This document shows positions 856 to 38,124 of a stretch of 64,000 bases of DNA, piece by piece (positions within the stretch are counted from its first letter, which is position 1; each line of letters opens with the position of its first letter). The notes below the pieces were generated by a model that ran no database searches, had not been told where the DNA came from, and saw nothing but the letters and a program-made list of their open reading frames with translations. Location: IMG/VR virus record IMGVR_UViG_3300031760_000008, positions 12,337 to 76,336 of that record; one strand, written 5' to 3'. Both the position numbers and the translations under genes were made by a program. This stretch comes from a virus. Its lineage: Duplodnaviria; Heunggongvirae; Uroviricota; Caudoviricetes.

Positions 856-866
856 TTATTTCTACC

Positions 867-2685: not shown

Positions 2686-2700
2686 CTCTTAGTCTTTCAA

Positions 2701-2711
2701 TAATATTTTAC
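2701..2711 (-). promoter_or_regulatory. conserved promoter-like motif copy
   Basis: taatattttac; 16 nt upstream of ATG 2685. Confidence 0.35.
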
Positions 2712-2770
2712 ATAGAAAAAGAGATAGAAATTTTCTATACGCTCTTTCTACCTCTTTTAATTTAATCTTA

Positions 2771-3055: not shown

Positions 3056-3068
3056 TTTAAATTACCTC

Positions 3069-5255: not shown

Positions 5256-5282
5256 AAAACTCTACCTTTCTTTAATATCTAT

Positions 5283-5293
5283 TAATATTTTAC
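5283..5293 (-). promoter_or_regulatory. conserved promoter-like motif copy
   Basis: 28 nt upstream of ATG 5255 (baseplate J-like gene). Confidence 0.4.
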
Positions 5294-5295
5294 AT

Positions 5296-5697
5296 CTATT
5301 CAGAATATGGTTTATCTGGATTATCTTCAGAAGTTATTTCTAAATTATATTGATTTATTTGACCAGTTTCTTTAATTTCATACATTATATAAATATTAAC
5401 AATTTGATCTTCGAATTTAATTATAATGTCATCTCCTCTAACTATTATTCTAGGTTCATATTTATCAATAGCTTGCATTATATCTTCTTTTAACAAAGGT
5501 TCAATTATTACTCCATTATATCTAAATATTCTATCTAAAAGGAAACAACCATATTCAGGATCTCCTAATAATTCTCCTGGTCGAGTTCTTAATAATAACC
5601 CTAAACATTCATTTATAGATTTTGTATTTTGAGAAAATTTTACATCTCTAGATGTTCTATCTACTATTTGTGGAAATGAAAAAGTGGATTGTCTCAT
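5296..5697 (-). CDS. baseplate wedge protein, gp25/GPW family
   Basis: 133 aa; 'LLLRTRPGELLGDPEYGCFLLDRIF' matches gp25/W signature; adjacent to baseplate J-like gene. Confidence 0.75.
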   Translation of the reverse strand: MRQSTFSFPQIVDRTSRDVKFSQNTKSINECLGLLLRTRPGELLGDPEYGCFLLDRIFRYNGVIIEPLLKEDIMQAIDKYEPRIIVRGDDIIIKFEDQIVNIYIMYEIKETGQINQYNLEITSEDNPDKPYSE

Positions 5698-5711
5698 ATT
5701 TTTCCTCCTTA

Positions 5712-7709: not shown

Positions 7710-7728
7710 ATATTATTTCCCTTCTTTA

Positions 7729-23410: not shown

Positions 23411-24159
23411 TTTAACACTGTAAAAATATCTTTATTACTATCTAAATGCTCTCGAACGGCTTGAATTTCAGCATTTCCCTCAGCAAGCAATGTTTGTCCA
23501 TCTAACTCGAATTTTGAAGATCTAGAAGTATATTTACTTCTTATTCTTCCTAAAATTACTTTAGTCATTCCTAAAGCTAATTTTCTAAGTTGAGTTTCCC
23601 AATATTGCTCTCTGATATCTTCAACTGAATAATATTCAGGTTTAAAATTAATAGTTACATAACTTGGTATATTAGGATTAGCATAAACATATAATTTTCT
23701 ATTTGGCTTATCCCATTGAAATTCCATATCAGTTGCAAGTATATTTAAATTTCTCTTAACTGATATTGCATTCATATATTCTTCCATGTTATACATTCCT
23801 GTTACATTCATTAAATCAATAGCAGGCATTTGAAAAGGAACTCCTGTTAAAACACTATCTGATCCTCTCCAAACTGATTCAATAGAATCAATATTATATT
23901 TTGAAAGATCTATACATTGTGCATATGGAACTGTTATTTGATATAAATCAGTCATGTAATGTACTAATTCTTCGAAAGCTTGTTCAACTATTTGTTTAAT
24001 TTGTTCAGGATTTAATTCAAGATCAAGTACTTGAGCTCCTAATTGATTTTCAATATATTGAACAATCTTTTTCATTCTTTTCTTCATACGAGGATAAGAA
24101 CGAGGTTTTACAAGATCTTGGTCATTAAATATAGGATCTAATTCTTCTTTATCTGCCAT
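23407..24159 (-). CDS. neck / head-tail joining protein candidate
   Basis: 250 aa ORF between head-side genes and sheath, as for T4 gp13-15 class proteins; no diagnostic motif. Confidence 0.4.
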   Translation of the reverse strand: MADKEELDPIFNDQDLVKPRSYPRMKKRMKKIVQYIENQLGAQVLDLELNPEQIKQIVEQAFEELVHYMTDLYQITVPYAQCIDLSKYNIDSIESVWRGSDSVLTGVPFQMPAIDLMNVTGMYNMEEYMNAISVKRNLNILATDMEFQWDKPNRKLYVYANPNIPSYVTINFKPEYYSVEDIREQYWETQLRKLALGMTKVILGRIRSKYTSRSSKFELDGQTLLAEGNAEIQAVREHLDSNKDIFTVLN

Positions 24160-24182
24160 TCTTATATCCTCCTATTTATTAA

Positions 24183-24644
24183 TTAATTTGATAAATGTTC
24201 ATAATCTGTAACATTTCCTTGTTTATCTAAAGTTACTTTAAATGATATATTATCAGCAACTACATATTCTTCTCGTTCATTTATTCTAACATTTTCATAT
24301 TGTGTTTCATCTAAAAAGAATTTATAATCAGAATGTTCAGATGATGTATCTTTTTCAAAAGATATAAAACTATATCCTTGTTCTTCGTTTAAATAATTAA
24401 ATGTTATTCTAGCAAAATCATCTGGAGTTAAAGAACCTGGAGTTTGAGTTATCTCTTCTAAAGATTCTTTTATTTTAGTATAATAAGCTAATCTTTCAGA
24501 AGATGTAACTGTTAATTTAACACTATCTCCTGGTTTTAATATATCTTGAAAATTAACATTATAATATCTAATAGCTTGATCTGTATTTGTTGTATTTTCT
24601 ATAGTTATATCTACTGGTTCTTCTAAAGATGTTTCATATTCCAT
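24183..24644 (-). CDS. small structural-associated protein, paralog 3 of tandem triplet
   Basis: N-terminus 'MEYETSLEEPVDITIENTTNTDQAIRYYNVNFQDILKPGDSVKLTVTSSERLAYYT' paralogous to 24674..25246 and 25389..25616. Confidence 0.5.
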   Translation of the reverse strand: MEYETSLEEPVDITIENTTNTDQAIRYYNVNFQDILKPGDSVKLTVTSSERLAYYTKIKESLEEITQTPGSLTPDDFARITFNYLNEEQGYSFISFEKDTSSEHSDYKFFLDETQYENVRINEREEYVVADNISFKVTLDKQGNVTDYEHLSN

Positions 24645-24673
24645 TATTAAGTTCTCCTTTCATTAAAATTTAA

Positions 24674-25246
24674 TTATGCAGGAGATGCTTCTGTATGTAT
24701 TCCAATTTGTTCTGCTACATCAGAGAAACCATATACAAAAGCAGCTTCATTATTTCCTTTAATTGAAAATACCCAATTTTCTGTAGATGTTTCATAATCA
24801 AGATCTGTGAAGAAAGAAATAACTACTATAGCATTTCTTTCAATACTTATTTCAGTAACAGCTGCTCCTAAAAGCCATTGTTTTCCGCTTTGTTTAACTA
24901 ATACTTTAACATAATCCCTTACATCACCTGTTTCAGGATCTGTAGTAGCTTCTTGTATAGCAGCAAAATCTAAACTAGATACATCTAGATAAGATCCTGA
25001 TATTAAAGCATCTGGTATTTCAAATACATAATCAGCAGATATAGGAGTTTCATCTTCTTTTAATTCTTCTTGAACTTCTGTATAATAAACTAATGATTCA
25101 GCAGTAGAAACTGTTAATTTAATCTTATCTCCAGGATGAAGAACATCTGTAAAGTTAGCTCCATAATATCTAAATACTTGATCAATATTAGTTTTATTTT
25201 CAATAGTCATATCTATAGAATTTTCTAAGTTTGTTTCGTAATTCAT
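24674..25246 (-). CDS. small structural-associated protein, paralog 2 of tandem triplet
   Basis: 'MNYETNLENSIDMTIENKTNIDQVFRYYGANFTDVLHPGDKIKLTVSTAESLVYYT'. Confidence 0.5.
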   Translation of the reverse strand: MNYETNLENSIDMTIENKTNIDQVFRYYGANFTDVLHPGDKIKLTVSTAESLVYYTEVQEELKEDETPISADYVFEIPDALISGSYLDVSSLDFAAIQEATTDPETGDVRDYVKVLVKQSGKQWLLGAAVTEISIERNAIVVISFFTDLDYETSTENWVFSIKGNNEAAFVYGFSDVAEQIGIHTEASPA

Positions 25247-25817: not shown

Positions 25818-26102
25818 TTAGAACAAAAATTGAGCTAAAGTAGAAACTCCTCTTTTAGTATCTTTCTTTATAGCTTTTTTAGGTTCAAGTTTCTTTTCTT
25901 CTTTAACTTCTTCTTTAATCTCTTCTACTTCAGGAATTTCTTCTTGAATAGGTTCTTCAGCAGCTTCTTCAACAACTTCTTCTACAGGTTCTTCGATTAC
26001 TTCTTCTTTAATCTCTTCTACTTCAGGCTCTGTTGTTTCAACAACTTCTTCTTTAACCTCTTCTATAATTTCTTCCTCTACAACTTTTTTACGTCTAGGC
26101 AT
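25818..26102 (-). CDS. small acidic EEV-repeat protein
   Basis: 94 aa, (EEVxE) repeats similar to acidic tracts of 22227..23372. Confidence 0.4.
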   Translation of the reverse strand: MPRRKKVVEEEIIEEVKEEVVETTEPEVEEIKEEVIEEPVEEVVEEAAEEPIQEEIPEVEEIKEEVKEEKKLEPKKAIKKDTKRGVSTLAQFLF

Positions 26103-26260
26103 AATATCTTTACCTTCCTTTCATAAATATTGTTAATTCGCACAAAATCATAGTTTTAATTAATTTTTACAGTAAAGCTAATACTTTATATATCTAAACT
26201 ATAAAAACAGAGTTAATCTAAAAATATATGAGACAAACCAATATCTTTGATTAACTCTGT

Positions 26261-26271
26261 TAATATTTTAC
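26261..26271 (-). promoter_or_regulatory. conserved promoter-like motif copy
   Basis: 159 nt upstream of ATG 26102. Confidence 0.3.
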
Positions 26272-26287
26272 GTTCAAAAATCTTAAA

Positions 26288-26335
26288 ATCTATAAAAAAT
26301 AAAAAAGCCCGAGAGAAAATCTAAAAACTCTCGAA
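26288..26335 (-). terminator. intrinsic terminator
   Basis: CGAGAG..CTCTCG stem followed on minus strand by GGCTTTTTTATTTTTT. Confidence 0.5.
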
Positions 26336-28678: not shown

Positions 28679-29053
28679 TTAACATTGCTTAATTATAGCA
28701 TTGGTATATCTTCTTAATAATTCAGTCATATTTTTTCTACCTACAGGATTAGATGTATGTATTCTAAATTCATTACAAGGTATATTATTTTCTATAATAT
28801 ATTTACAAACATCATATCCAGTTTTTTCTTCTCCTAAATCATGATCTAAACATATTATATCATATCTAAATCTATGTAATTCATGAATAGCTTCATTATA
28901 AGATCTAGCTATAAATGTATGATATTCTCCTATATAATTATTAGGAATTCCTCTTAAATCATCTATCCATAATAAATATTTTTTAGGTTCTTTTCTTTTA
29001 GCTAAATGATCTTCATACCATTTCATAGCAAAATAATTATCAAAATTACTCAT
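28679..29053 (-). CDS. receiver (CheY-like) domain-like protein
   Basis: 'LLWIDD', 'DIICLDHDLGEEKTGYDVCKYI', 'FRIHTSNP' resemble REC-domain acidic pocket, phospho-Asp and Thr positions. Confidence 0.4.
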   Translation of the reverse strand: MSNFDNYFAMKWYEDHLAKRKEPKKYLLWIDDLRGIPNNYIGEYHTFIARSYNEAIHELHRFRYDIICLDHDLGEEKTGYDVCKYIIENNIPCNEFRIHTSNPVGRKNMTELLRRYTNAIIKQC

Positions 29054-29924: not shown

Positions 29925-30234
29925 ATAAATCTAAAAATCCAATAAGATCTAAATCTTTATATTCTTTTTTCTCTTTCCAAAACCATTGCATAAAATCATC
30001 ATGATTTATTAATTTTTCAGAATCACATAAACCTTTAAAACATAAACAAACATATGTATTAAGATGCTGAAAAATTCTACCTATGTAGTCAGGTATATTA
30101 GATTCAGATAAAAAAGATGACATATTCTTTTCAAATAATAAAGTATCTTTTCTGATATCTTCTATTATGTCAATAATTGCTAATCTTTCTTCTATAAAAT
30201 CATCTCTTGTTAACATATCTATATCTACCCCCAT
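29905..30234 (-). CDS. hypothetical protein
   Basis: 109 aa ORF. Confidence 0.4.
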   Translation of the reverse strand: MGVDIDMLTRDDFIEERLAIIDIIEDIRKDTLLFEKNMSSFLSESNIPDYIGRIFQHLNTYVCLCFKGLCDSEKLINHDDFMQWFWKEKKEYKDLDLIGFLDLCGYGGK

Positions 30235-30322
30235 ATAAATAAAATGTAAGAGGTTTTAATTTTATTTTCAACGCAGGTTCCTCTTCTTTATACTGACGCA
30301 TATCTAGGCGCTACCTAGCCTC

Positions 30323-30397
30323 TGGCTCCCTTGGATAGGTTCGAACTACCATTCCAGGAATCAAAATCCTGTATCCTACCAGTTAGATGACAAGGGA
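30323..30397 (-). tRNA. tRNA-Gln (anticodon TTG), CCA encoded
   Basis: Hand-folded cloverleaf: acceptor TCCCTTG/CAAGGGA, anticodon stem CAGGA/TCCTG with loop TTTTGAT, T-arm GGTAG-TTCGAAC-CTATC, discriminator G, 3' CCA. Confidence 0.65.
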
Positions 30398-30401
30398 ATA
30401 T

Positions 30402-30923
30402 TTAATCTAAATGTTTCCAGTTTATATTTTTAATTATATTTCTAATTTGTATTCTTGAAACATCATATCTTTTAGCTAAAGCATTAAAACTATTATTTTT
30501 ATCATAAGGAATATATGAAGCTCTAATTTCTTTTATATCTTTTTCAGACAATTTATGCATACCATTATCTTCTCCATAAGGTTTTAACAAATTATGTTCA
30601 ATTGCATGTTGAGTATTGTAAGAATCACTACACCATTCTAAATTATCACTATAATTATTTAATTTATTTCCATCTTTATGATTAATTGTTTTATATTTAA
30701 AAGGATTAGATATAAATGTACAAGCTACCGCTACATGAACTCCTAGATTTATAGCCTTTCCATTTATTTTAGTTACAAATCGATAATAACCGTTTTTATT
30801 TATTACAAATTTTATAAATCTATTAGTTCTTTTACTAAATATTCTTCCTTTATTAGATATATTAAAATATTTAGAATAATCTTTATCTCTATATATCATA
30901 CCTTTCCATAGCTCTTCTTGCAT
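30402..30923 (-). CDS. HNH homing endonuclease (NUMOD4/HNH_3 type with C-terminal HTH)
   Basis: 'NKGRIFS...NGYYRF', 'HKDGNKLNNYSDNLEW' HNH_3 signature; 5 nt from tRNA-Gln. Confidence 0.7.
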   Translation of the reverse strand: MQEELWKGMIYRDKDYSKYFNISNKGRIFSKRTNRFIKFVINKNGYYRFVTKINGKAINLGVHVAVACTFISNPFKYKTINHKDGNKLNNYSDNLEWCSDSYNTQHAIEHNLLKPYGEDNGMHKLSEKDIKEIRASYIPYDKNNSFNALAKRYDVSRIQIRNIIKNINWKHLD

Positions 30924-31147
30924 ATATCTACCTCATTTTTAAATATAAGCATGAGTAGGCATTGACTCGTACATGCGTCCACATATTATCGCACTTAATA
31001 GGTTGTTTACCGACCTACTCATATATTTGAGCAATTTTTTCTGTTAACGGATAGTTACTCTTCTATCTTACTATAGAATGATTTGACCCTAGTTGCCGTG
31101 ATAATCATTAAAAACCGGCCAGGAAGTAAAGATGCTATAGTCATCTC

Positions 31148-31221
31148 TTGGAGGTACAGATTGGAATCGAACCAATGATCGAGCTTTTGCAGAGCTTTGT
31201 CTTGCCACTTGACTACTGTAC
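31148..31221 (-). tRNA. tRNA-Cys (anticodon GCA), CCA encoded
   Basis: Acceptor GGTACAG/CTGTACC, anticodon loop CTGCAAA, T-arm TGGTTCGATTCCA, discriminator T as in Cys tRNAs. Confidence 0.7.
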
Positions 31222-31255
31222 CATATATCAGAGAGTATCTCTACTCTCTATTTGA

Positions 31256-32743
31256 CTATAATTCTTTTGGTTTTGTTAAATCTTCTTTTTTATCTTCAAC
31301 AGGTTTTGCTCCTAGTTTACCTACAGCATATCCTGCTACTATTGATTTTAAATCTACTCCTAAACTATCTTGAGCTACTTTTAATATCTTATCTATTTTT
31401 TGAGTTCCACTTTCTATTAATTGAGTTGATTGATCTCCATACATTGTAATTGAATCTACATTTGATAATGGAGTAGATACTTCTTTAGCTATATCAGGAA
31501 GTTTATTTATAATCATTTCTACTACTGAAGCTTGTTGCATTTTAGCTTGTGCTTCTGCTTTCTTTTCGATACCTTTTGCTTCTGCAATACCTTTTGCTTC
31601 AATACCAGCTGCTTCAGCTTCTAATTTTGCTTTTATACCATCAGCCTCTGCTACTGCTTTAGCCCTTATAGCTTGAGCTTCTAATTCTGCTGCTTCTTTA
31701 TTAGCTTTTGCTATTTCTATTTTAGCTTGAGCTTCTTGTTTTGCTTTTTCTAGATCAGCTTGAGCATTTTGTATTGTAACTTGTTTTTGAGCTTCTGCAT
31801 TAATTTCTGCTTTATATTTATCTGCATCAGCTTGTTTTCTAACTTCTGCATCTAATTGTTTTTCTCTTAAAGCTACTTCTTTTTCTTTTAATTCTGTTTC
31901 TTTTTCTGTTTTAGCTATTTCAGCAAGAACTGTGTTTTCATTTATAAGCTTTTGTCTTTCAGCTTTTTGTATTTCATAAATAGTATCAGCTTCTGCTTTT
32001 TTCTTATCTTGTTCAATTTGATATTCATATTGTTTTAAAGCTAACTCTTTATTTTGTTTTGCTATTTCAGCTTCTGATGCTGCTTTAGCTTCATTACCTT
32101 CTCTAGCTGCAGCTGCTTGTGCTACTTGAACATCTCTTTCAGCTTGGGCTTTTGCTATTTTAGCATCTTTTTGAATCTTTGATAAATTATCAATACCTAA
32201 ATCATTAATAGCATTATTCTCATCTGTACAAGATTGTACATTTAAGTTTACTATTTCTAATCCTATTGCTTTAATATCGTCTTTAGCATTTTCTTGAATT
32301 TTAGTTGAAAATAATTGTTTGTTATTAACTAAATCTTTAAGATTCATTTGACCAATTATTTCTCTCATGTTACCTTCAAGAACTTGTTGAACATTTCTTG
32401 CAATATATTCAGGATTTTGATTTAGGAAATGTCTTGCAGCTACCTGTATTAATTCAGGATTGTTAGGTATTCTAACATTTGCTACAGCATCTACATCTAC
32501 ATTAATAAAATCAGATGTAGGAACTCTTGATGTCTTAACATCAATTTGAATTAACTCTAAAGTTAATTTATCCACTCTCTCAAAGAATGGGATTCTTAAT
32601 GTTGCTTTACCTATTATTACTCTAGGTTCTTTTTTAAGACCTGATATTAAATATACCATATCTGGTGGACATTTAACATAGCTCATGAAAATTAAACCTA
32701 TCAGCAATATTACAGCAACAGCGATAATGATTGCTAATACCAT
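31256..32743 (-). CDS. SPFH/band-7 flotillin-like membrane protein
   Basis: N-terminal TM (LAIIIAVAVILLIGLIFM), SPFH-like core (..GKATLRIPFFERVDKLTLE..IQID..), then ~250 aa Ala/Glu/Lys/Gln coiled coil (AKAQAERDVQVAQAAAAREGNEAKAA...) typical of flotillin. Confidence 0.75.
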   Translation of the reverse strand: MVLAIIIAVAVILLIGLIFMSYVKCPPDMVYLISGLKKEPRVIIGKATLRIPFFERVDKLTLELIQIDVKTSRVPTSDFINVDVDAVANVRIPNNPELIQVAARHFLNQNPEYIARNVQQVLEGNMREIIGQMNLKDLVNNKQLFSTKIQENAKDDIKAIGLEIVNLNVQSCTDENNAINDLGIDNLSKIQKDAKIAKAQAERDVQVAQAAAAREGNEAKAASEAEIAKQNKELALKQYEYQIEQDKKKAEADTIYEIQKAERQKLINENTVLAEIAKTEKETELKEKEVALREKQLDAEVRKQADADKYKAEINAEAQKQVTIQNAQADLEKAKQEAQAKIEIAKANKEAAELEAQAIRAKAVAEADGIKAKLEAEAAGIEAKGIAEAKGIEKKAEAQAKMQQASVVEMIINKLPDIAKEVSTPLSNVDSITMYGDQSTQLIESGTQKIDKILKVAQDSLGVDLKSIVAGYAVGKLGAKPVEDKKEDLTKPKEL

Positions 32744-32919
32744 TTATCTCTACCTCCAAATAAATAATATTTGCTAGTCTCTCCTAGCAGTCACGTTGCT
32801 ACTTAATGTACTTCTTGCTCAACACAACGTTTGAACGAGACAAAGTTGCCGTGTACACCTGACCTGTAGAAATATCTGAGTTTCACTACAGAGAGGACTC
32901 AAACGCTCATACCTCATAC

Positions 32920-32993
32920 TGGCAGGAGTGGTAAGAATTGAACTCACATTAACGGTTTTGGAGACCGTAGTCCTACCATTGAACGACACTCCT
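32920..32993 (-). tRNA. tRNA-Trp (anticodon CCA), CCA encoded
   Basis: Acceptor AGGAGTG/CACTCCT, anticodon arm ACGGT-CTCCAAA-ACCGT identical to classic Trp arm, T-arm GTGAG-TTCAATT-CTTAC. Confidence 0.8.
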
Positions 32994-33071
32994 ATTTAAT
33001 TTCGTCAAAACACAAGATAGTTTCAAATGTAATGACGAAATATTAAGACTATTTTTCTTCCTTTAGGAAGA

Positions 33072-33158
33072 TGGTGGAGAAGGTGTGAATCGAACACACT
33101 CAGCCTTACGACAACAGTTTTACAGACTGCCCTGACTCTCCTACTTCAGCGCTTCTCC
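33072..33158 (-). tRNA. tRNA-Tyr (anticodon GTA), long variable arm, CCA encoded
   Basis: Acceptor GGAGAAG/CTTCTCC, D-stem CTGA/TCAG, anticodon loop CTGTAAA, T-arm GTGTG-TTCGATT-CACAC, discriminator A. Confidence 0.75.
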
Positions 33159-33164
33159 ATATAT

Positions 33165-33255
33165 TGGCACTAGGACTGGGATTTGAACCCAGGAGCCGCT
33201 CATCACGACTGCATGTTTTCAAGACATGTGCTTTCAACCGCTCAGCCATCCTAGC
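33165..33255 (-). tRNA. tRNA-Ser (anticodon TGA), long variable arm, CCA encoded
   Basis: Acceptor GCTAGGA/TCCTAGT (G-U top pair), anticodon stem CATGT/ACATG loop CTTGAAA, T-arm CTGGG-TTCAAAT-CCCAG, discriminator G. Confidence 0.7.
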
Positions 33256-33258
33256 ATA

Positions 33259-33795
33259 TTAATCAAATTTATATCTTTTATAAGTAACTATATTATATAT
33301 AGTACTATGAGCTACATTATACATATCTGCTATTTCTTGAATAGACTTACCTTCTTTATATAATCTTCTTATATTTAGGATATCTTCTTTAGTAAATTTC
33401 GTATTAGAATTATTACATCCATTTTGATCTGAATATAAACCATCTTTAGCTGCTTTTTCTGAATTTCCTTTAGGTGTCATCCAATGTAAATTAGTATCTC
33501 TATTATCAGATTTATTATTATTTTCATGATCTACAACGGTTTTATTTATAGGATCGTCATTATCTTTAAATGTCCAAGCTACACATCTATGTATAGGAAC
33601 AGTTAAACTATAATGTTTTCCATCATTATATTTACTTATAGTAACTCTTAAATAACCTTTTTTATCCATATGAGGTTTTCTTATTAATCCAGTTTCTTTA
33701 TTTCTAAAATGTCCAAAATTAGATATTTCGTAACCTTCTATTTCTTTTCCGTTTAATATAGCTTGCTTATATATTTCTTTTTTCAATATAATCAC
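33259..33795 (-). CDS. HNH homing endonuclease (NUMOD4/HNH_3 with C-terminal HTH)
   Basis: 'EISNFGHFRN..GYLRVTIS', 'DHENNNKSDNRDTNLHW', C-terminal 'SIQEIADMYNVAHSTIYNIV'; 4 nt from tRNA-Ser. Confidence 0.7.
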   Translation of the reverse strand: MIILKKEIYKQAILNGKEIEGYEISNFGHFRNKETGLIRKPHMDKKGYLRVTISKYNDGKHYSLTVPIHRCVAWTFKDNDDPINKTVVDHENNNKSDNRDTNLHWMTPKGNSEKAAKDGLYSDQNGCNNSNTKFTKEDILNIRRLYKEGKSIQEIADMYNVAHSTIYNIVTYKRYKFD

Positions 33796-33813
33796 CTATA
33801 TTATTATAACAAG

Positions 33814-34386
33814 TTATTTATCTTTTAATAAATCAGTACCTTTTATTTCATTACCATTTTCATCATATACATTAAAGAAGTTAAGTAAATCTAATCTATT
33901 CATTAATTTTAAAAACATTATTAGTTTTTCAGAATCTACTCCTCCTTTTGGATCTAAACAACTATTAAAAGCATATAACAAAATAATATTATAATCATTA
34001 TAAATTAAATCATCAAAAGTACCACATTTTCTATCTTTATGTAATGTAGAATTCCAAGAAGTTCTTTTTTCATACATATCTCTTCTCTTTTTCCAATCTT
34101 TATGATTACACATAAAGTCTTTACATACAAAAGGTCTAACAGGATATATATTACATTTTTTATTTTTACTATCATAGAAACAACATTGAGCTATAAGTTG
34201 ATTTTCATTAATAATTCTATTAGTAGGTTTAATATTATTTACTTTCACATAATCTTTTATTAATCTTAATTCTTCATCAGTGAATGGAATAAATAATCCA
34301 CAACAAGATCCACATCTACTACATTCACCATTACATGTCATATCATTTATTACTCCAGGTTTTGCTTCATTTTTATTAATTAACAT
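33814..34386 (-). CDS. YkgJ-family putative zinc/iron-chelating (CxxCxxCC) protein
   Basis: 'CNGECSRCGSCCG' and 'CCFYDSKNKKCNIYPVRPFVCKDFMC' match YkgJ/UPF0153 pattern. Confidence 0.6.
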   Translation of the reverse strand: MLINKNEAKPGVINDMTCNGECSRCGSCCGLFIPFTDEELRLIKDYVKVNNIKPTNRIINENQLIAQCCFYDSKNKKCNIYPVRPFVCKDFMCNHKDWKKRRDMYEKRTSWNSTLHKDRKCGTFDDLIYNDYNIILLYAFNSCLDPKGGVDSEKLIMFLKLMNRLDLLNFFNVYDENGNEIKGTDLLKDK

Positions 34387-34568
34387 TTTATTACTCCTTA
34401 TATCTACCAGTTTCTACATCTATATATAATTGTCTTAATTCTTCATTATCCATATCATCTGAATGAGGTATATTATGATCTCTTAACCAACATTCTAATG
34501 TTCTTCTTTCATTTTCATATCCAGGTAAAGACCATAATTCAGCATTTTCACTCATAAAGTCAACTCCT

Positions 34569-34901
34569 TTAAATTTTAGTTATTATAGGACAATATCTAG
34601 TTTGATAATTAATTTTATACATATTATTAATATAAATAGCTTTAAGATTACCTGTCCTAGTATAATCTTCTTTTAATTCATTTATTTCTATATTTAAAAT
34701 AGTTTTATCTAACTCATCTCTATAAGTAAGATAAGGATTATAAGTGTCTTCATTTACTTTTTTAATAGCTCTATCATATTCTTTTTGAAACTTATCTATA
34801 ATAAGTTGAGGTGCTTGTAATTCTTTTAATTTAACTATTCCATTTTCTTTTTCTTTTAATTTTTCTTTATGTTGATTTGTTAATAAATCTTTAATAGTCA
34901 T
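34569..34901 (-). CDS. hypothetical protein
   Basis: 110 aa ORF. Confidence 0.4.
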   Translation of the reverse strand: MTIKDLLTNQHKEKLKEKENGIVKLKELQAPQLIIDKFQKEYDRAIKKVNEDTYNPYLTYRDELDKTILNIEINELKEDYTRTGNLKAIYINNMYKINYQTRYCPIITKI

Positions 34902-34970
34902 AATAAATACCTCCTACATATCTATTATAACATATTTTTTAAAAATATTAACGTGATTTATATAAATTTA

Positions 34971-35567
34971 TTAATCTTCTTCAGATGAAAAGTATATATC
35001 TTGTTTATCCATTTCTTCTTTTTCATATTTTCTTAACTTTTCTATTATATCATCATATATATTTACCATTACATTTGGATCTATTTCTTGATTCATTGTA
35101 GTATCTCTTCCTAGATATTTATACCAAGAAATTTTTAAATCTGGCATATTGGCTTTAGTTTTATCTACATAATAAATAAAATTATATTCTTGACAAATAT
35201 CATCATCCCAATTATATGCTTCTACTTTAAATACTCCAGGTAGTTCAAAAGAGTTTCCTGTATTACTAAAAGGAGAATCATAATCTTTTTGTTCTGTATT
35301 ATGCATGATTCTATTTAATTCATTATCAATACTATCAAGCAATGCTATTATATATCTAGGACATGTATAACTTTGAATATTATTTGGATTAAATATTATA
35401 GCTCCTAATTCTAAACCTTCTGGTTGTACTTCCATATATCTACCTCTTTTCTTGTATAGAGAGATGATATATCTCATCTCTCTATTTTCTTTTATAACTT
35501 TTATACCAATCAATAATAGCTTCTTCTTTGGTTTCATTATATCTAGATTTCCAACTAGATACTCCAT
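34971..35567 (-). CDS. hypothetical protein (true start probably internal Met near 35435)
   Basis: N-terminal 44 aa of ORF overlap the next gene in another frame; 'MEVQPEGLE' with RBS is more plausible start. Confidence 0.4.
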   Translation of the reverse strand: MEYLVGNLDIMKPKKKLLLIGIKVIKENREMRYIISLYKKRGRYMEVQPEGLELGAIIFNPNNIQSYTCPRYIIALLDSIDNELNRIMHNTEQKDYDSPFSNTGNSFELPGVFKVEAYNWDDDICQEYNFIYYVDKTKANMPDLKISWYKYLGRDTTMNQEIDPNVMVNIYDDIIEKLRKYEKEEMDKQDIYFSSEED

Positions 35568-35814
35568 TTACTATTTCTTTTTGGTCTTTTTCCCAATCAT
35601 CAATAGCATCTTGTTTAGTTTGATAAGATTTATATTCCCAAAGATCCCAACTATCTAATCCAAATCTTTCATAATCTTTTCCATTACCTACATCAAGATT
35701 TGTATCTTTTAGTTTTCTTCTGATCTTTCTGTTATTATATTTCTTACCATCTTTTAAAGATCTTCCCCATAGATTATCTCTAAACTGAGGAAATTTTTTA
35801 TAACTTCTACTCAT
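35482..35814 (-). CDS. basic Trp/Lys-rich small protein
   Basis: 110 aa ORF with RBS ggaggtg upstream. Confidence 0.4.
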   Translation of the reverse strand: MSRSYKKFPQFRDNLWGRSLKDGKKYNNRKIRRKLKDTNLDVGNGKDYERFGLDSWDLWEYKSYQTKQDAIDDWEKDQKEIVNGVSSWKSRYNETKEEAIIDWYKSYKRK

Positions 35815-35902
35815 TATTGAGTCACCTCCTTAGGCACTAAGCCCTAGAAGACGTTTTGTAAGATAATCATAATTACCTCCTCCTTATTATTTATAACATA
35901 TT

Positions 35903-35993
35903 TGGCGTCATAGGTAAGATTCGAACTTACGGATCCTTTTATAGATCGATGCGTTAGCAGTGCATTGGTTTAAACCACTCACCCACTATGACA
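35903..35993 (-). tRNA. tRNA-Ser (anticodon GCT), long variable arm, CCA encoded
   Basis: Acceptor GTCATAG/CTATGAC, anticodon loop CTGCTAA, T-arm GTAAG-TTCGAAT-CTTAC, discriminator G; one mismatch at inner anticodon-stem pair. Confidence 0.6.
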
Positions 35994-35996
35994 TAT

Positions 35997-36073
35997 TGGT
36001 CTGATAGGCTGGATTTGAACCAGCGGTCCCTTCATCCCAAATGAAGTGCGTTACCAAGCTACGCTACTACCAG
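35997..36073 (-). tRNA. tRNA-Pro (anticodon TGG), CCA encoded
   Basis: Acceptor CTGGTAG/CTATCAG (one G-U), D-stem GCGT/ACGC, anticodon stem CTTCA/TGAAG loop TTTGGGA, T-arm GCTGG-TTCAAAT-CCAGC. Confidence 0.75.
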
Positions 36074-36396
36074 ATATAAAAATAGAGTATGATCATAGTG
36101 ATTAGACCATACTCTATTTTGTTGCCTGATTTCATATTTATAGAAAGAATGACTAATTACTATTACTTGATATTCAAGTTCACTGAAGAAACCATACTAG
36201 ATTGTACGGGCCAATTTTGATATGAACTTGTACAAGAATTTAATTTCTTCATAGTAATCAATCTCTCCTCTCTATTATTATTTTACTAACATAAAAATAG
36301 AAATACGGAAATTTATATATCTCATCGGAATTAACCTTGGCAATCGGATATTTTGGATAAAATATTTTTTATATCCGTATTTCTGTCGATATTATA

Positions 36397-37122
36397 TTAT
36401 AAATCTTCTTTATTGTCAACCTGATTTCTATAGATATTACAAATTTCATTTATTTTATATGACATATCAAGTAAGAATTTAGATAATTCTTGGTCTTCCA
36501 TATTAACTAATTTAATTAAAGGAATAGGAAGAATTTCTATAATATCATCTTTCTTTTGTTTTAATTCTTTTTCTTTTTTATCTCTTTCAGATACTACTTT
36601 ATACCAATTAGTATATATTCTACTATGTTCTTCTTTCTTATCTATATCTACTCCTAAATATTTAATAATATCTTTTAATATTCGTAATTCTGCAAAATGT
36701 TCTTCTAAATTATCACAGCATCCTTGACAATTATCTAACATCATATCTAGGTCCATATATCTAAATTCTAATTCTTCTCTTATTTTATTTTTAGCTTGTT
36801 CATCTAATATATCTTCTTTTTTAGTTTTATCTCCTTTAGGATTATCTAATATTTTTAGTTCTAAATTAATTAAATCAATATCATTATAAATACTTACTAA
36901 AGGTTCATCATCTTCATTTATAAAATTACCTGAATTAAAATCATATTCATAAATATAACCTTTAGGATCAGTAACAAATAAAGGAGATTTTATTTTATTT
37001 TCTTTTATTAGTTTTAGTAACTCTAACCATTTATAAGTATTCTTATTACCTTGTACAGATTTTATCATAATTGTAAACGGATCTGTTTCAGGACCAAAAT
37101 TAATCCCACCGATATCACTCAC
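36397..37122 (-). CDS. hypothetical protein (241 aa)
   Basis: ORF with Cys cluster 'CQGCCDNLEEHF'. Confidence 0.4.
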   Translation of the reverse strand: MSDIGGINFGPETDPFTIMIKSVQGNKNTYKWLELLKLIKENKIKSPLFVTDPKGYIYEYDFNSGNFINEDDEPLVSIYNDIDLINLELKILDNPKGDKTKKEDILDEQAKNKIREELEFRYMDLDMMLDNCQGCCDNLEEHFAELRILKDIIKYLGVDIDKKEEHSRIYTNWYKVVSERDKKEKELKQKKDDIIEILPIPLIKLVNMEDQELSKFLLDMSYKINEICNIYRNQVDNKEDL

Positions 37123-37376: not shown

Positions 37377-37727
37377 CTAAGATTCTTGCCATGTTCTAAA
37401 CTCCTTAATTTGTTCTAATAAATGATCACAATCTCCATCAAAACAAATTGCTCTATCATCTACATAACACATAGCAGGTGGTTTATCAGAGTAAATACCA
37501 TCTACATATATTATATATTTATCTAACCAAGCTTGAATTGCCTTTTTACCTTCTTCTGTTCTAGATCTAGTACTCATTATTACTACTTCATAGCCAGCAT
37601 TTCTTAAATGATCTATAACTTGTTTAATACCTATAACAGGTCCATCATATATAGAACCATCATGCCAACCTTTTGAATATCTATGTACTACTCCGTCAAA
37701 ATCAAACACTATTCTTCTTTTACTCAT
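37377..37727 (-). CDS. HAD-superfamily phosphatase, 5'(3')-deoxyribonucleotidase-like
   Basis: N-terminal 'IVFDFDGVV' DxDG motif, small size typical of NT5C-like enzymes. Confidence 0.55.
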   Translation of the reverse strand: MSKRRIVFDFDGVVHRYSKGWHDGSIYDGPVIGIKQVIDHLRNAGYEVVIMSTRSRTEEGKKAIQAWLDKYIIYVDGIYSDKPPAMCYVDDRAICFDGDCDHLLEQIKEFRTWQES

Positions 37728-38118
37728 GTTTTCCTCCTTTTATAACTTTAAACTTAGGTTTAGTTTTAACAGGAATTATATTTATATCAAAATGACTATA
37801 TACAAGATCTTTTAATTTCTCATTTAATTCATTAGAAATCTTTATAGTATATGTTATAGATATTTCTAATTCATAATTAGGAACTGTTATATCTAATAGC
37901 CAAAAATTATCACAATTTGTAGATTTTAAATGCTCAACTCTATCTTGATTTATATCCACAACTAAATAATCTAAATAATTATCAGGAATATCTTCTACAA
38001 TCTTTACAGGCCCTTGTTTAGTATTATAACCTGATTTAATTATAAAATATTTCATATAAGGGAAAGTAGCTTGTATCCATTTATCTACATCATGTATATC
38101 TTGAACATCAGTTTCCAT
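37720..38118 (-). CDS. hypothetical protein
   Basis: 132 aa ORF. Confidence 0.4.
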   Translation of the reverse strand: METDVQDIHDVDKWIQATFPYMKYFIIKSGYNTKQGPVKIVEDIPDNYLDYLVVDINQDRVEHLKSTNCDNFWLLDITVPNYELEISITYTIKISNELNEKLKDLVYSHFDINIIPVKTKPKFKVIKGGKHE

Positions 38119-38124
38119 TATTTA

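What the first reader, a model, noticed from the sequence alone, without database searches (positions are those of the whole stretch)
30323..36073. Seven tRNA genes in three islands, each island adjacent to an HNH homing endonuclease
Hand folding gives Gln(TTG), Cys(GCA), Trp(CCA), Tyr(GTA), Ser(TGA), Ser(GCT) and Pro(TGG), all on the minus strand and all with genomically encoded CCA. NUMOD4/HNH_3 endonuclease genes at 30402..30923 and 33259..33795 abut tRNA-Gln and tRNA-Ser within 4-5 nt. This parallels the tRNA-island/seg-endonuclease association in T4-like phages, here in a clostridial phage. The set of tRNAs (Trp, Cys, Gln, Tyr, Pro, Ser) is consistent with compensating for host codon bias for late proteins.
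Basis: partly seen in the sequence, partly recalled or inferred. Interest (0 to 1): 0.5.

Follow-up and report, generated by a model that had tools for sequence, protein, structure and literature searches.

The report
Homing endonuclease–tRNA cassettes in a phage
Seven real tRNA genes lie in this uncultured T4-like phage, and two of them are joined head-to-tail to selfish HNH endonuclease genes in swappable cassettes that differ between near-identical phages, a new example of a pattern already known from phages T4 and T5.

Summary
All seven tRNAs sit at the stated coordinates with encoded CCA. Both ORFs are I-HmuI-type HNH endonucleases with intact catalytic residues, ending 4 and 3 nt before tRNA-Gln and tRNA-Ser(UGA). 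The third island (Ser-GCU/Pro) has no endonuclease.

Comparison with relatives adds the main result. In phages whose conserved flanking DNA is about 84-100% identical to the window, the two HNH positions are replaceable cassettes.
- Site B holds tRNA-Gln alone, or HNH1 + another tRNA-Gln (window), or a third tRNA-Gln + a PD-(D/E)XK endonuclease + tRNA-Asn.
- Site A holds HNH2 + canonical tRNA-Ser(UGA) + tRNA-Tyr (window), or an unusual '8/4' tRNA-Ser(UGA) with or without a different tRNA-Tyr.

Six of ten sampled HNH1 relatives have a tRNA starting within 10 nt of, or overlapping, their stop codon. The window's tRNA-Gln lineage travels with HNH genes into other backbones.

Best reading: free-standing homing endonucleases that move with a tRNA allele by gene conversion. 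Cleavage, target and transfer are untested. This matches T4 SegB and T5 F-Tfl, so it is a new member of a known kind. 'Clostridial host' is unproven, and codon compensation is poorly supported.

The parts
30323..30397 (-). tRNA-Gln(UUG), allele 'Gln_a', with encoded CCA. It is the tRNA part of cassette B.
   Evidence: ARAGORN; Rfam 54.1 bits. It is 99% identical to the tRNA-Gln beside the L062 HNH, 84-85% to those beside HNH genes in L065 and L003, and only 61% to the tRNA-Gln of the endonuclease-free allele L030.
30402..30923 (-). HNH1: a 173-aa free-standing I-HmuI-type HNH (His-Me finger) endonuclease gene. Its stop codon lies 4 nt before tRNA-Gln.
   Evidence: NUMOD4 30 bits and HNH_3 26 bits, both above cut-off. 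phrog_59 E 1e-40. PDB 1U3E (I-HmuI) E 1e-13. H82, N94 and N103 are invariant in 18 family members.
30323..30941 (-). Cassette B (619 nt): 18-nt leader, HNH1, 4 nt, tRNA-Gln_a. Between the same flanks it is replaced by a lone 74-nt tRNA-Gln in L030, and by tRNA-Gln_b + PD-(D/E)XK + tRNA-Asn (737 nt) in L001.
   Evidence: Alignments and sequence reads. Left flank '...gcctactcatgcttatatt'; right flank 'gaggctRggtagc...' begins directly after the tRNA CCA in all three alleles.
30942..31025 (-). 84-nt long-stem hairpin element bordering cassette B. It is conserved in L001 and L030 and also occurs in an otherwise unrelated viral contig (L026). Function unknown.
   Evidence: Its fold is not better than shuffles (z -1.2). 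No Rfam match.
31026..31129 (-). 104-nt non-coding stretch present in the window and L030 but absent from L001.
31149..31222 (-). tRNA-Cys(GCA), conserved in L001 and L030. In relative L066 an HNH1-family gene sits 9 nt upstream of the homologous tRNA-Cys.
31256..32743 (-). Flotillin/SPFH (Band_7) gene, the conserved anchor between the two variable sites.
   Evidence: Pfam Band_7 E 7.6e-23. 0-3 differences per 200 nt from L001.
32772..32789 (-). Terminator-like hairpin followed by a U-rich tail, downstream of tRNA-Trp. Three of its stem pairs are changed on both sides in L001.
   Evidence: terminator scan; sequence comparison.
32920..32993 (-). tRNA-Trp(CCA), identical in L001.
33072..33158 (-). 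tRNA-Tyr(GUA), allele 'Tyr_a', class II with a long variable arm. It is part of cassette A. L001 has a very different allele here, and L030 and L066 have none.
   Evidence: ARAGORN. Below the Rfam cut-off, but covariation supports 15 of 24 pairs. 23 differences from L001 fall in the 200-nt bin 33101-33300, which holds most of this gene.
33165..33255 (-). Canonical (7/5) tRNA-Ser(UGA), part of cassette A. The relatives examined that lack HNH2 at this site (L001, L030, L066) carry an 8/4-type tRNA-Ser(UGA) in this slot.
33259..33795 (-). HNH2: a 175-178-aa I-HmuI-type HNH endonuclease with a C-terminal helix-turn-helix. Its stop codon lies 3 nt before tRNA-Ser(UGA).
   Evidence: NUMOD4, HNH_3 and HTH_7. 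phrog_59 E 2e-33. 1U3E E 3e-10, with D89/H90/N102/N111 aligned to I-HmuI D74/H75/N87/N96. dN/dS 0.29 against its 82% homologue.
33072..33802 (-). Cassette A (about 730 nt): HNH2 + tRNA-Ser(UGA) + tRNA-Tyr_a. It lies between a conserved TGTTATAAT promoter-like motif after the CxxCxxCC gene and the shared spacer 'tcttcctaaaggaag'.
   Evidence: Fifteen differences from L001 pile up in the 100 nt next to it (33798-33900), while 34101-34700 has none.
35903..35992 (-). tRNA-Ser(GCU), third island, no endonuclease nearby.
35997..36073 (-). tRNA-Pro(UGG), third island, no endonuclease nearby.
36391..36419 (-). Perfect sigma-70 consensus (TTGACA-17-TATAAT) about 320 nt upstream of tRNA-Pro, a candidate promoter for the third island.
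   Evidence: 12 of 12 matches. The scan as a whole is not enriched over shuffles.

Best explanation
HNH1 and HNH2 are free-standing homing endonuclease genes of the I-HmuI type (His-Me finger, NUMOD4 + HNH_3). Each is joined head-to-tail, 3-4 nt apart, to a tRNA gene, forming a compact endonuclease-tRNA cassette inside the tRNA transcription units of an uncultured T4-like, low-GC myovirus.

Proposed mechanism. When this phage co-infects a cell with a relative that lacks the cassette, the endonuclease nicks or cuts the rival's DNA in or beside the corresponding tRNA locus. Recombinational repair then copies the endonuclease gene together with its own tRNA allele(s) into the rival, replacing the tRNAs that were there. 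The tRNA is both landing pad and cargo: it offers conserved sequence, and the recipient keeps a working isoacceptor. Because the endonuclease reading frame ends 3-4 nt before the mature tRNA 5' end, it is probably co-transcribed with the tRNA precursor and separated from it by RNase P cleavage.

Shown here: the anatomy, family membership by sequence, conserved catalytic residues, replacement polymorphism at both sites, co-inheritance of HNH with one tRNA-Gln lineage, and recombination breakpoints at tRNA 3' ends and inside an HNH gene.

Inferred: endonuclease activity, the target site, the direction of transfer, and RNA processing.
For: (1) Family. Both proteins match I-HmuI (1U3E) at E 1e-13 and 3e-10, Pfam NUMOD4/HNH_3 and phrog_59. 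The catalytic His and Asn residues are invariant in 18 homologues down to 36% identity.
(2) Polymorphism. The IMG/VR contig L001 is 96-98.5% identical over 18 kb except at the two HNH sites.
(3) Site B alleles between identical flanks: tRNA-Gln only (L030), HNH1 + tRNA-Gln_a (window), and tRNA-Gln_b + PD-(D/E)XK (PF11645, E 1.6e-21) + tRNA-Asn (L001).
(4) Site A alleles: HNH2 + Ser + Tyr_a (window), 8/4-Ser + Tyr_b (L001), and 8/4-Ser alone (L030, L066).
(5) Flank divergence. Differences from L001 concentrate beside the cassettes while the flotillin gene is nearly identical, as expected for co-conversion from a diverged donor.
(6) Boundaries. The right-hand boundary of each cassette is the 3' end of a tRNA gene, the place where T4 SegB cuts (PMC2330249).
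(7) Clade-level linkage. Of ten HNH1 relatives sampled at 37-73% identity, six have a tRNA starting -23 to +9 nt from the stop codon, two have one within 50 nt, and two have none.
(8) Module. tRNA-Gln_a is 99%, 84% and 85% identical beside HNH genes in L062, L065 (a different, siphovirus-like backbone) and L003, but 61% identical to the endonuclease-free allele.
(9) Breakpoint inside the gene. In L062, identity to the window rises from about 60% to 97-100% in mid-HNH and stays high through the tRNA.
(10) Census. Only 2 of 79 window ORFs are HNH, and both abut tRNAs (p about 0.005).
(11) The window's genotype recurs in contigs from several samples.
Against: No biochemical or genetic test was possible; cleavage, target and non-reciprocal transfer are all inferred. 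Other mismatch hot spots between the window and L001 lie far from any endonuclease (35100-35500, 24100-24700, 25900-26300), so mosaic recombination occurs without them. The tRNA alleles inside alternative cassettes differ by about 40%, far more than the few changes needed for target immunity, so the cassettes may come from distant donors rather than from simple homing into a cognate site. No shared motif was seen in the different tRNAs downstream of family members (Gln, Phe, Cys, Arg). HNH1-family dN/dS is fairly high (0.5-0.7), though one comparison is confounded by the chimeric L062 gene. The third tRNA island has no endonuclease, and two sampled family members are not near tRNAs.
Confidence: 0.65

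Rival explanations
1. Safe-harbour insertion without tRNA targeting. The endonuclease genes sit in tRNA operon leaders and spacers only because insertions there are harmless: RNase P and other processing still release the tRNAs. On this view the allelic diversity reflects ordinary recombination in a non-essential, fast-evolving region, and the enzymes are inactive or target something else.
For: The region is mosaic in general, with endonuclease-free hot spots of divergence. tRNA content around the flotillin gene ranges from 0 to 8 among relatives. Other accessory genes such as Tad8 also sit between tRNAs. No common motif was seen in the downstream tRNAs. HNH1 dN/dS is 0.5-0.7.
Against: Catalytic residues are invariant across the family. 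HNH2 dN/dS is 0.29. The junction is kept within about 10 nt across 45-100% identity and different backbones. Endonucleases of at least three different sequence families sit beside tRNA-Gln in different relatives. Cassette boundaries fall at tRNA 3' ends.
Confidence: 0.15
2. Domesticated, anti-defence role. The endonucleases are kept because they drive replacement or amplification of tRNA alleles, for example tRNA-Tyr variants or 7/5 versus 8/4 tRNA-Ser. This would let the phage escape host nucleases that cleave tRNAs, as shown for T6 SegB, tRNA-Tyr and Septu.
For: Precedent in PMC13096335. tRNA-Tyr is the most divergent element between the 97%-identical window and L001, including the variable arm. 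Cassette A exchanges an 8/4 tRNA-Ser(UGA) for a canonical one. An anti-Thoeris Tad8 gene lies in the same region in relatives.
Against: No repeat amplification of the tRNA region is seen in the window. No host or defence system is known. The divergence is equally explained by import from a distant donor. No experiment was possible.
Confidence: 0.12
3. The tRNA set exists to compensate host codon bias for late phage proteins, and the HNH genes are incidental neighbours.
For: The tRNAs read A/U-ending codons the phage prefers: CAA is 89% of Gln codons, and TCA/TCT and CCA/CCT dominate their families. Codon compensation is the prevailing general view of phage tRNAs (PMC13096335 discussion).
Against: The seven tRNAs cover only about 20% of codons and none of the six most-used codons. 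Cys and Trp are the two rarest amino acids, and Cys and Trp are more frequent in the small-gene middle region than in the structural modules. Phages 96-98% identical carry different tRNA sets: Asn present or absent, Tyr present or absent, two architectures of Ser-UGA. Host codon usage is unknown.
Confidence: 0.08

Closest known systems
Phage T4 SegB and the T4 tRNA gene cluster (Brok-Volchanskaya et al. 2008, PMC2330249; Chihara et al. 2026, PMC13096335)
   Same: A free-standing homing endonuclease gene lies inside a phage tRNA cluster. Relatives lacking it carry different tRNAs and ORFs at the same place. The endonuclease ORF ends at the start of a tRNA gene. In T4 cleavage occurs at tRNA-gene 3' ends, and here the cassette boundaries lie at tRNA 3' ends. 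The host phage has T4-like virion genes (Gp23, gp25, T4 baseplate, S77 protease).
   Different: SegB is a GIY-YIG enzyme, whereas these are HNH (His-Me finger) enzymes. Cleavage, recognition of the T-psi-C motif and preferential inheritance are demonstrated for SegB and untested here. The host is a low-GC Bacillota-type organism, not E. coli.
Phage T5 F-TflI / F-TflII / F-TflIV H-N-H endonucleases in the T5 tRNA region (Akulenko et al. 2004, as cited in PMC2330249 and PMC10644984)
   Same: HNH-family site-specific endonuclease genes embedded in a phage tRNA gene cluster, and a main source of differences between close relatives.
   Different: Different phage family (Demerecviridae). Sequence relationship to HNH1 and HNH2 was not tested here. 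The tight stop-codon-to-tRNA junction and co-inheritance with one tRNA lineage are not known to me for T5.
I-HmuI of Bacillus phage SPO1 (PDB 1U3E)
   Same: Best structural relative by sequence (E 1e-13 and 3e-10). Same length (about 174 aa), an N-terminal NUMOD4-type DNA-binding region, the HNH motif with aligned His and Asn residues, and a C-terminal helix-turn-helix (Pfam HTH_7 in HNH2; not detected by Pfam in HNH1, whose C-terminus aligns with HNH2's).
   Different: I-HmuI is encoded inside a group I intron of the DNA polymerase gene (from my own knowledge). HNH1 and HNH2 are free-standing between genes, and no intron RNA family was found. HNH1 has Asn where I-HmuI has Asp74, which is the norm in its subfamily.
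T4 Mob-type free-standing HNH endonucleases and 'nuclease genes at boundaries of genetic exchange' (PMC2790892; Barth et al. 2023, PMC10448857)
   Same: Free-standing HNH genes that mobilise flanking DNA. The endonuclease genes sit at edges of recombination tracts. Domain shuffling occurs within endonuclease genes; here the L062 gene is chimeric.
   Different: Those cases lie mostly beside essential protein-coding genes; here the partner is a tRNA gene.
(8/4) tRNA-Ser / allo-tRNAs (Mukai et al. 2017, PMC5389517)
   Same: The 87-nt element that occupies the tRNA-Ser(UGA) slot in relatives L001, L030 and L066, which lack HNH2 there, has an 8-bp acceptor stem, a 4-bp T stem, a 6-bp D stem with a tetraloop, a long variable arm, G73 and a serine anticodon. 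That paper reports this class in phage tRNA clusters and in rumen Clostridia.
   Different: It is not in the window itself, where a canonical 7/5 tRNA-Ser(UGA) linked to HNH2 takes its place. Aminoacylation was not tested.

Membership tests
I-HmuI-type HNH (His-Me finger) homing endonucleases (Pfam HNH_3 + NUMOD4) | Significant sequence match to the family models and to a solved member | tested here: met
   HNH_3 26.0 and 26.1 bits (cut-off 24.8); NUMOD4 30 and 34 bits (cut-off 23.4). phrog_59 E 1e-40 and 2e-33. 1U3E E 1e-13 and 3e-10 over about 100 residues.
I-HmuI-type HNH (His-Me finger) homing endonucleases (Pfam HNH_3 + NUMOD4) | Catalytic His and metal-binding/structural Asn residues of the beta-beta-alpha-metal motif present | tested here: met
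   HNH2 D89/H90/N102/N111 and HNH1 N81/H82/N94/N103 align with I-HmuI D74/H75/N87/N96. H82, N86, N90, N94 and N103 are invariant in 18 homologues.
I-HmuI-type HNH (His-Me finger) homing endonucleases (Pfam HNH_3 + NUMOD4) | Presence/absence polymorphism of the gene between closely related genomes (hallmark of mobility) | tested here: met
   L001 lacks both genes on a 96-98.5% identical background. L030 has an endonuclease-free site B. The L062 and L066 alleles differ again.
I-HmuI-type HNH (His-Me finger) homing endonucleases (Pfam HNH_3 + NUMOD4) | Site-specific nicking or cleavage of the endonuclease-free allele, and non-reciprocal transfer in mixed infection | not testable with these tools
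   Requires purified protein and DNA substrates, or phage crosses.
I-HmuI-type HNH (His-Me finger) homing endonucleases (Pfam HNH_3 + NUMOD4) | Beta-beta-alpha-metal fold confirmed by structure | not tested
   No structure prediction was run; the sequence match to 1U3E was judged sufficient.
Intron-encoded homing endonuclease (as I-HmuI itself) | The ORF lies within a self-splicing group I or II intron | tested here: not met
   No intron family among Rfam matches at E <= 1 over 30000-36500. The ORFs lie between a promoter-like motif or hairpin element and intact tRNA genes. They are therefore free-standing.
SegB-type tRNA-cluster homing system (T4) | GIY-YIG catalytic domain | tested here: not met
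   Pfam finds NUMOD4/HNH_3 and no GIY-YIG. The system works like SegB but is not a SegB homologue.
SegB-type tRNA-cluster homing system (T4) | Endonuclease gene embedded in the tRNA cluster, with the ORF abutting a tRNA gene | tested here: met
   Gaps of 4 and 3 nt. Six of ten sampled relatives are within -23 to +9 nt.
SegB-type tRNA-cluster homing system (T4) | Relatives without the endonuclease carry alternative tRNA genes or ORFs at the same locus | tested here: met
SegB-type tRNA-cluster homing system (T4) | Recognition of the tRNA T-psi-C-arm DNA motif and cleavage at tRNA-gene 3' ends | not testable with these tools
   Only indirect evidence: the right boundary of both cassettes coincides with a tRNA 3' end.
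T5 F-Tfl H-N-H endonucleases of the tRNA region | HNH-family endonuclease gene located in a phage tRNA cluster | tested here: met
   The T5 situation is taken from PMC2330249 and PMC10644984.
T5 F-Tfl H-N-H endonucleases of the tRNA region | Sequence homology to F-TflI, F-TflII or F-TflIV | not tested
   No direct comparison with T5 proteins was made.
Canonical bacterial-type tRNA genes | Cloverleaf recognised by tRNA predictors or covariance model | tested here: met
   Seven of seven by ARAGORN. Six of seven above the Rfam gathering score. Tyr is supported by covariation instead.
Canonical bacterial-type tRNA genes | Expression, processing and aminoacylation | not testable with these tools
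   Needs RNA sequencing or biochemistry.

The most novel reading that the evidence does not exclude
The endonuclease-tRNA cassettes may be more than selfish DNA. They could act as a tRNA-allele exchange system, in which nuclease-driven gene conversion swaps or amplifies structurally different isoacceptors. Examples here are canonical 7/5 versus 8/4 tRNA-Ser(UGA), and strongly divergent tRNA-Tyr alleles including the variable arm. Such swaps would let the phage population escape host defences that cleave specific tRNAs. Endonucleases of at least three sequence families (I-HmuI-type HNH, a second HNH family and PD-(D/E)XK) would then be competing for the same tRNA-Gln site.
Probability: 0.15. 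Interest if true: 0.7.

Novelty: new member of a known kind. Interest (0 to 1): 0.42.

Why it matters
This is a clean natural allele series for how selfish endonucleases reshape phage tRNA repertoires. It includes an endonuclease-free site, two sites occupied by endonucleases of different families, and chimeric forms. If the mechanism holds, tRNA content in these phages depends as much on cassette mobility as on codon demand. That bears on how phage tRNAs are interpreted in metagenomes and on the recent idea that endonuclease-linked tRNAs counter tRNA-cleaving host defences. It also extends the T4 SegB and T5 F-Tfl pattern to an I-HmuI-type HNH clade in uncultured low-GC phages. Finally, it shows that standard tRNA finders miss functional-looking 8/4 tRNAs at the same locus.

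Tried and rejected
(1) Large structured non-coding RNAs beside the tRNAs. The stretches 32744-32919, 30924-31148 and 30235-30322 have raised GC, but their folding energies equal shuffled controls (z 0.02, 0.13, -0.56) and there is no Rfam match at E <= 1. The compensatory changes I saw belong to short hairpins, one of them terminator-like.
(2) Extra tRNAs missed in the window. ARAGORN with relaxed thresholds adds only one implausible opposite-strand call inside an ORF.
(3) Promoter mapping by consensus scan. 37 sites were found against 45.5 expected, so the scan is uninformative apart from one perfect consensus upstream of tRNA-Pro.
(4) Close relatives in GenBank phages. There was no megablast match, so relatives had to come from IMG/VR and metagenomes.
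(5) Exact-pattern scans for further alleles found only the already known contig, plus L026 for the 84-nt element.
(6) I first read L066 site A as empty from BLAST coordinates. Reading the sequence showed it holds an 8/4 tRNA-Ser, so no fully empty site A allele was observed.
(7) HNH1 Asn81 as a sign of decay was rejected, because Asn-His is the norm for that whole subfamily.
(8) Host assignment. The evidence conflicts, so the question is left open.
(9) Chance adjacency was rejected (p about 0.005 in the window, plus the clade-level linkage).
(10) Pfam did not recognise the small nuclease-like ORFs of L003 and L004. PHROGs supports L003 as an HNH (E 4e-20) and supports L004 only weakly (E 1e-4).

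Full report
OBSERVATION

ARAGORN finds exactly seven tRNA genes in the 64-kb window.

| tRNA | Coordinates |
|---|---|
| Gln(UUG) | 30323-30397 |
| Cys(GCA) | 31149-31222 |
| Trp(CCA) | 32920-32993 |
| Tyr(GUA) | 33072-33158 |
| Ser(UGA) | 33165-33255 |
| Ser(GCU) | 35903-35992 |
| Pro(UGG) | 35997-36073 |

Six reach the Rfam tRNA gathering score, at 52-64 bits. tRNA-Tyr does not; at a permissive threshold it appears only as a 22.8-bit match to the related tmRNA model. An alignment of four divergent tRNA-Tyr alleles from this phage and its relatives still gives a class-II cloverleaf, in which 15 of 24 pairs are kept through changes on both sides. I therefore accept it as a real tRNA. All seven genes end in an encoded CCA (sequence read).

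Both match phrog_59 'HNH endonuclease' at E 1e-40 and 2e-33. They are 30% identical to each other. HNH1's stop codon is 4 nt from tRNA-Gln, and HNH2's is 3 nt from tRNA-Ser(UGA).

One part of the title is wrong. The third island (Ser-GCU/Pro) has no endonuclease neighbour, and only 2 of the 79 ORFs in the window match these families. Six ORFs border a tRNA, so the chance that both HNH genes are among them is 15/3081, or 0.005.

WHAT THE GENES ARE

Both proteins match the solved structure of I-HmuI, the HNH homing (nicking) endonuclease of Bacillus phage SPO1. The match is E 1e-13 and 3e-10 and covers the N-terminal DNA-binding region and the catalytic motif. I-HmuI residues D74/H75/N87/N96 align with D89/H90/N102/N111 in HNH2 and with N81/H82/N94/N103 in HNH1.

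In an alignment of 18 homologues down to 36% identity, the catalytic His and the Asn residues are invariant. Asn-His is the norm for the whole HNH1 subfamily, so it is not a sign of decay.

dN/dS is 0.29 for HNH2 and 0.5-0.7 for HNH1. That is below 1 but higher than the neighbouring genes at 0.11-0.24. One HNH1 comparison is confounded by a chimeric gene, described below.

No intron RNA family is detected, so the genes are free-standing.

THE GENOME

All but one of the ORFs run on the minus strand. The window encodes a T4-type virion module: Gp23-family capsid protein, prohead protease S77, T4 baseplate protein, gp25 and a tail sheath. GC is 27% overall and about 23% in this region.

No GenBank phage is similar at the DNA level. 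An ENA metagenome contig of 105.8 kb is 100% identical over the 12.5 kb compared. The same arrangement, with both HNH genes, recurs in contigs from several other samples, so this genotype is circulating.

COMPARATIVE EVIDENCE

An IMG/VR contig of 179 kb (L001/L002) is 96-98.5% identical to window 21.3-41.8 kb, apart from a few short gaps; the two at issue here sit exactly at the HNH genes. More alleles came from the flotillin-like gene as an anchor and from the contexts of HNH homologues.

Site B lies between identical flanks. The left flank ends '...gcctactcatgcttatatt', and the right flank 'gaggctRggtagc...' starts directly after a tRNA CCA.

| Genome | Site B / region downstream of the flotillin gene |
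|---|---|
| L030 | Lone tRNA-Gln (74 nt), no endonuclease |
| Window | HNH1 + a different tRNA-Gln (619 nt) |
| L001 | A third tRNA-Gln + PD-(D/E)XK endonuclease (PF11645, E 1.6e-21) + tRNA-Asn (737 nt) |
| L066 | A 48%-identical HNH sits 9 nt upstream of tRNA-Cys |
| L062 | An HNH directly follows the flotillin gene and is followed by tRNA-Gln |

Site A lies between the CxxCxxCC gene and the spacer before tRNA-Trp.

| Genome | Site A content |
|---|---|
| Window | HNH2 + canonical tRNA-Ser(UGA) + tRNA-Tyr |
| L024 | An 82% homologue of HNH2 at the same place |
| L001 | An 87-nt tRNA-like element + a very different tRNA-Tyr |
| L030, L066 | The 87-nt element only |

Differences between the window and L001 pile up next to the cassettes. 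There are 15 in the 100 nt adjoining HNH2 and 23 in the bin holding most of tRNA-Tyr, against 0-3 per 200 nt across the flotillin gene. Other hot spots exist elsewhere.

THE HNH-tRNA LINK IS A CLADE PROPERTY

HNH1 has 321 homologues at E <= 1e-8. I fetched the context of ten of them, spanning 73% to 37% identity.

| Locus | Identity to HNH1 | tRNA and offset from the HNH gene |
|---|---|---|
| L062 | 73% | Gln, +4 nt after the stop |
| L063 | 60% | Gln, overlaps the stop by 10 nt |
| L065 | 55% | Gln, +7 nt |
| L064 | 54% | Phe, +9 nt |
| L066 | 48% | Cys, +9 nt |
| L068 | 45% | Arg, overlaps the stop by 23 nt |
| L069 | 39% | His, 48 nt downstream |
| L067 | 43% | Arg, ends 31 nt upstream of the HNH start |
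| L070 | 37% | None within 2.5 kb |
| L071 | 45% | None; next to a DNA polymerase gene |

The window's tRNA-Gln is 99% identical to the one beside the L062 HNH. It is 84% identical to the one in L065, which has a different, siphovirus-like backbone, and 85% to the one near a second-family HNH in L003 (phrog_3106, E 4e-20). It is only 61% identical to the tRNA-Gln of the endonuclease-free allele. HNH plus this tRNA-Gln lineage is therefore a co-inherited two-gene module.

In L062, identity to the window rises from about 60% to 97-100% in the middle of the HNH gene, near the catalytic motif, and stays there through the tRNA. The recombination breakpoint lies inside the endonuclease gene and links its C-terminal half, which aligns with HNH2's DNA-binding helix-turn-helix region, to the tRNA.

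MECHANISM

Best-supported reading, confidence about 0.65: HNH1 and HNH2 are free-standing homing endonucleases that move together with a tRNA allele.

In a mixed infection the enzyme would nick or cut the rival genome in or next to the corresponding tRNA locus. Repair would then copy the endonuclease gene and its linked tRNA(s), replacing the resident ones. The tRNA supplies conserved sequence to land on and keeps the recipient supplied with that isoacceptor.

The 3-4-nt junction implies co-transcription with the tRNA precursor and separation by RNase P. This is similar to what was proposed for segB, whose ORF end abuts tRNA-Arg (PMC2330249).

- Shown: anatomy, family, conserved catalytic residues, replacement polymorphism, flank divergence, module co-inheritance and breakpoints.
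- Inferred: activity, target, direction of transfer and RNA processing.

RIVALS

- Harmless insertion into a 'safe harbour' with ordinary mosaic recombination (0.15).
- A domesticated anti-defence role, by analogy with SegB-driven tRNA-Tyr amplification against Septu (PMC13096335) (0.12).
- Codon compensation as the organising principle (0.08).

COMPARISON WITH WHAT IS KNOWN

T4 SegB is a GIY-YIG homing endonuclease inside the T4 tRNA cluster. It recognises the T-psi-C-arm motif and cuts at tRNA-gene 3' ends. T2L lacks segB and the flanking tRNAs and has other ORFs and tRNAs instead (PMC2330249). The SegB-tRNA association is widespread (PMC13096335). T5 carries H-N-H endonucleases (F-Tfl) in its tRNA cluster.

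The present case works like these, but it is not a SegB homologue because the catalytic domain differs. It belongs to the I-HmuI-type HNH family. It is therefore a new member of a known kind.

What it adds:
- a multi-allele natural series that includes an endonuclease-free site B;
- endonucleases of at least three sequence families (I-HmuI-type HNH, a second HNH family, PD-(D/E)XK; a fourth, weak candidate is in L004) beside tRNA-Gln in different relatives;
- a tightly conserved stop-codon-to-tRNA junction.

Host. The nearest cultured capsid relatives infect Listeria, Streptococcus and Bacillus at 28-34% identity. The only bacterial-genome hit for the tRNA-Gln lineage is a contig binned as 'Bacilli bacterium'. 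That contig is itself a related phage fragment: it has 12 tRNAs in 8 kb and a glycosyltransferase 78% identical to the window's. On the other side, a type-I dockerin domain and the 8/4 tRNA-Ser class reported from rumen Clostridia lean towards Clostridia. 'Clostridial' is therefore unproven.

Codon compensation. The seven tRNAs read about 20% of codons and none of the six most frequent ones. Near-identical phages carry different tRNA sets. Without the host this cannot be settled, but it does not explain the arrangement.

SIDE FINDING

The 87-nt element that replaces canonical tRNA-Ser(UGA) in L001, L030 and L066 (relatives that lack HNH2 at site A) folds by free energy alone into an 8/4 cloverleaf. 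It has an 8-bp acceptor stem, a 6-bp D stem with a tetraloop, a UGA anticodon, a 5-bp variable arm, a 4-bp T stem, G73 and CCA.

Across three variants, all 28 pairs are kept and six change on both sides. Controls with the pairing partners slid by 1-3 columns give only 26-45% pairing. ARAGORN and Rfam both miss it. It matches the '(8/4) tRNA-Ser' class of Mukai et al. (PMC5389517).

VERDICT

This is a well-supported new example of endonuclease-tRNA cassettes and is of moderate interest.

Noticed in passing
L001 7567-7653; L030 1366-1452; L066 1042-1128 (slot homologous to window 33165-33255): An 87-nt tRNA missed by ARAGORN and Rfam, with an 8/4 acceptor/T architecture, a 6-bp D stem plus tetraloop, a long variable arm, anticodon UGA, G73 and CCA. 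All 28 pairs are kept in three variants, six with compensatory changes. It matches the '(8/4) tRNA-Ser' (allo-tRNA) class of Mukai et al. 2017. The window has a canonical tRNA-Ser(UGA) linked to HNH2 instead.
   Followed up: yes
window 30942-31025 (minus strand); L026 4987-5058: An 84-nt long-stem hairpin element borders cassette B. It is conserved in L001 and L030, and about 72 nt of it recur at 94% identity in an otherwise unrelated viral contig. There it directly follows an uncalled tRNA-like sequence ending in CCA. It has no Rfam match and its fold is not better than shuffles. It could be a small processed RNA or a recombination or target site.
   Followed up: partly
window 32772-32789 (minus strand): A terminator-like hairpin lies between tRNA-Trp and the flotillin ribosome-binding site. 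Three of its stem pairs are changed on both sides in L001 (GCUAG/CUAGC versus GUCUG/CAGAC). It probably ends the Ser-Tyr-Trp transcription unit. A second hairpin just after tRNA-Gln (about 30305-30319) also shows a compensatory A:U to G:C change.
   Followed up: partly
L030 1530-1604: An uncalled tRNA-Trp-like sequence (anticodon loop CUCCAAA, CCA end) with an atypical T loop replaces the canonical tRNA-Trp of the window in this relative.
   Followed up: no
L062 715-1203 (protein P0005) versus window 30402-30923: This HNH gene is chimeric. Its 5' part matches the P0011/P0012 lineage, and its 3' half is 97-100% identical to HNH1. The switch lies near the catalytic NHKDGNKLNN motif, which is domain shuffling within a homing endonuclease gene.
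   Followed up: partly
L004 9009-9341; L063 5471-5719: A Tad8 gene (type II Thoeris inhibitor, PF25189, E 2.8e-23) sits among the tRNA genes in two relatives. The tRNA region therefore also hosts anti-defence genes.
   Followed up: no
L005 9264-9334; L004 13688-13776; L068 2309-2398; L072 3138-3214; L067 5049-5123: Unusual anticodons are called in relatives: UUA (ochre-suppressor type), ACU (twice), AUG (a tRNA-His), and one call with a 4-base anticodon. These may be suppressor or non-standard tRNAs, or predictor artefacts.
   Followed up: no
window 10587-12503 (minus strand): A 638-aa protein in the structural-gene region carries type-I dockerin repeats (E 7.9e-26) and an EF-hand-like match. 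A dockerin on a phage protein hints at attachment to a cellulosome-type scaffold, and so at a host or habitat.
   Followed up: no
window 37720-38118 (minus strand): A 132-aa ORF with no Pfam or PHROG match is present in the window but absent from the 98%-identical L001 (window 37728-38124 is replaced by 5 nt). This is another presence/absence gene, with no endonuclease attached.
   Followed up: partly
L072 (JBJEYJ010000082.1, 'MAG: Bacilli bacterium'), 1-8000: This contig, binned into a bacterial MAG, has 12 tRNAs in 8 kb and a glycosyltransferase 78% identical to window 52569-53615. It is most likely a related phage fragment, so the taxonomic label is only a weak host hint.
   Followed up: partly
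window 28679-29053 (minus strand): A 124-aa cREC_REC (cyclic-phosphate-processing receiver domain) protein lies just downstream of the tRNA region and is conserved in relatives (L062, L066). One window ORF, not localised, also matches HAD_SAK_2, a domain found in 'Swiss Army Knife' RNA repair proteins. This suggests possible RNA repair or processing functions near the tRNAs.
   Followed up: no
window 36391-36419 (minus strand) and 36074-36396: A perfect TTGACA-17-TATAAT consensus sits at the end of ORF 36397-37122, followed by a 323-nt non-coding leader before tRNA-Pro. A TGTTATAAT extended -10-like motif also recurs just upstream of the site A cassettes and of several small genes.
   Followed up: no
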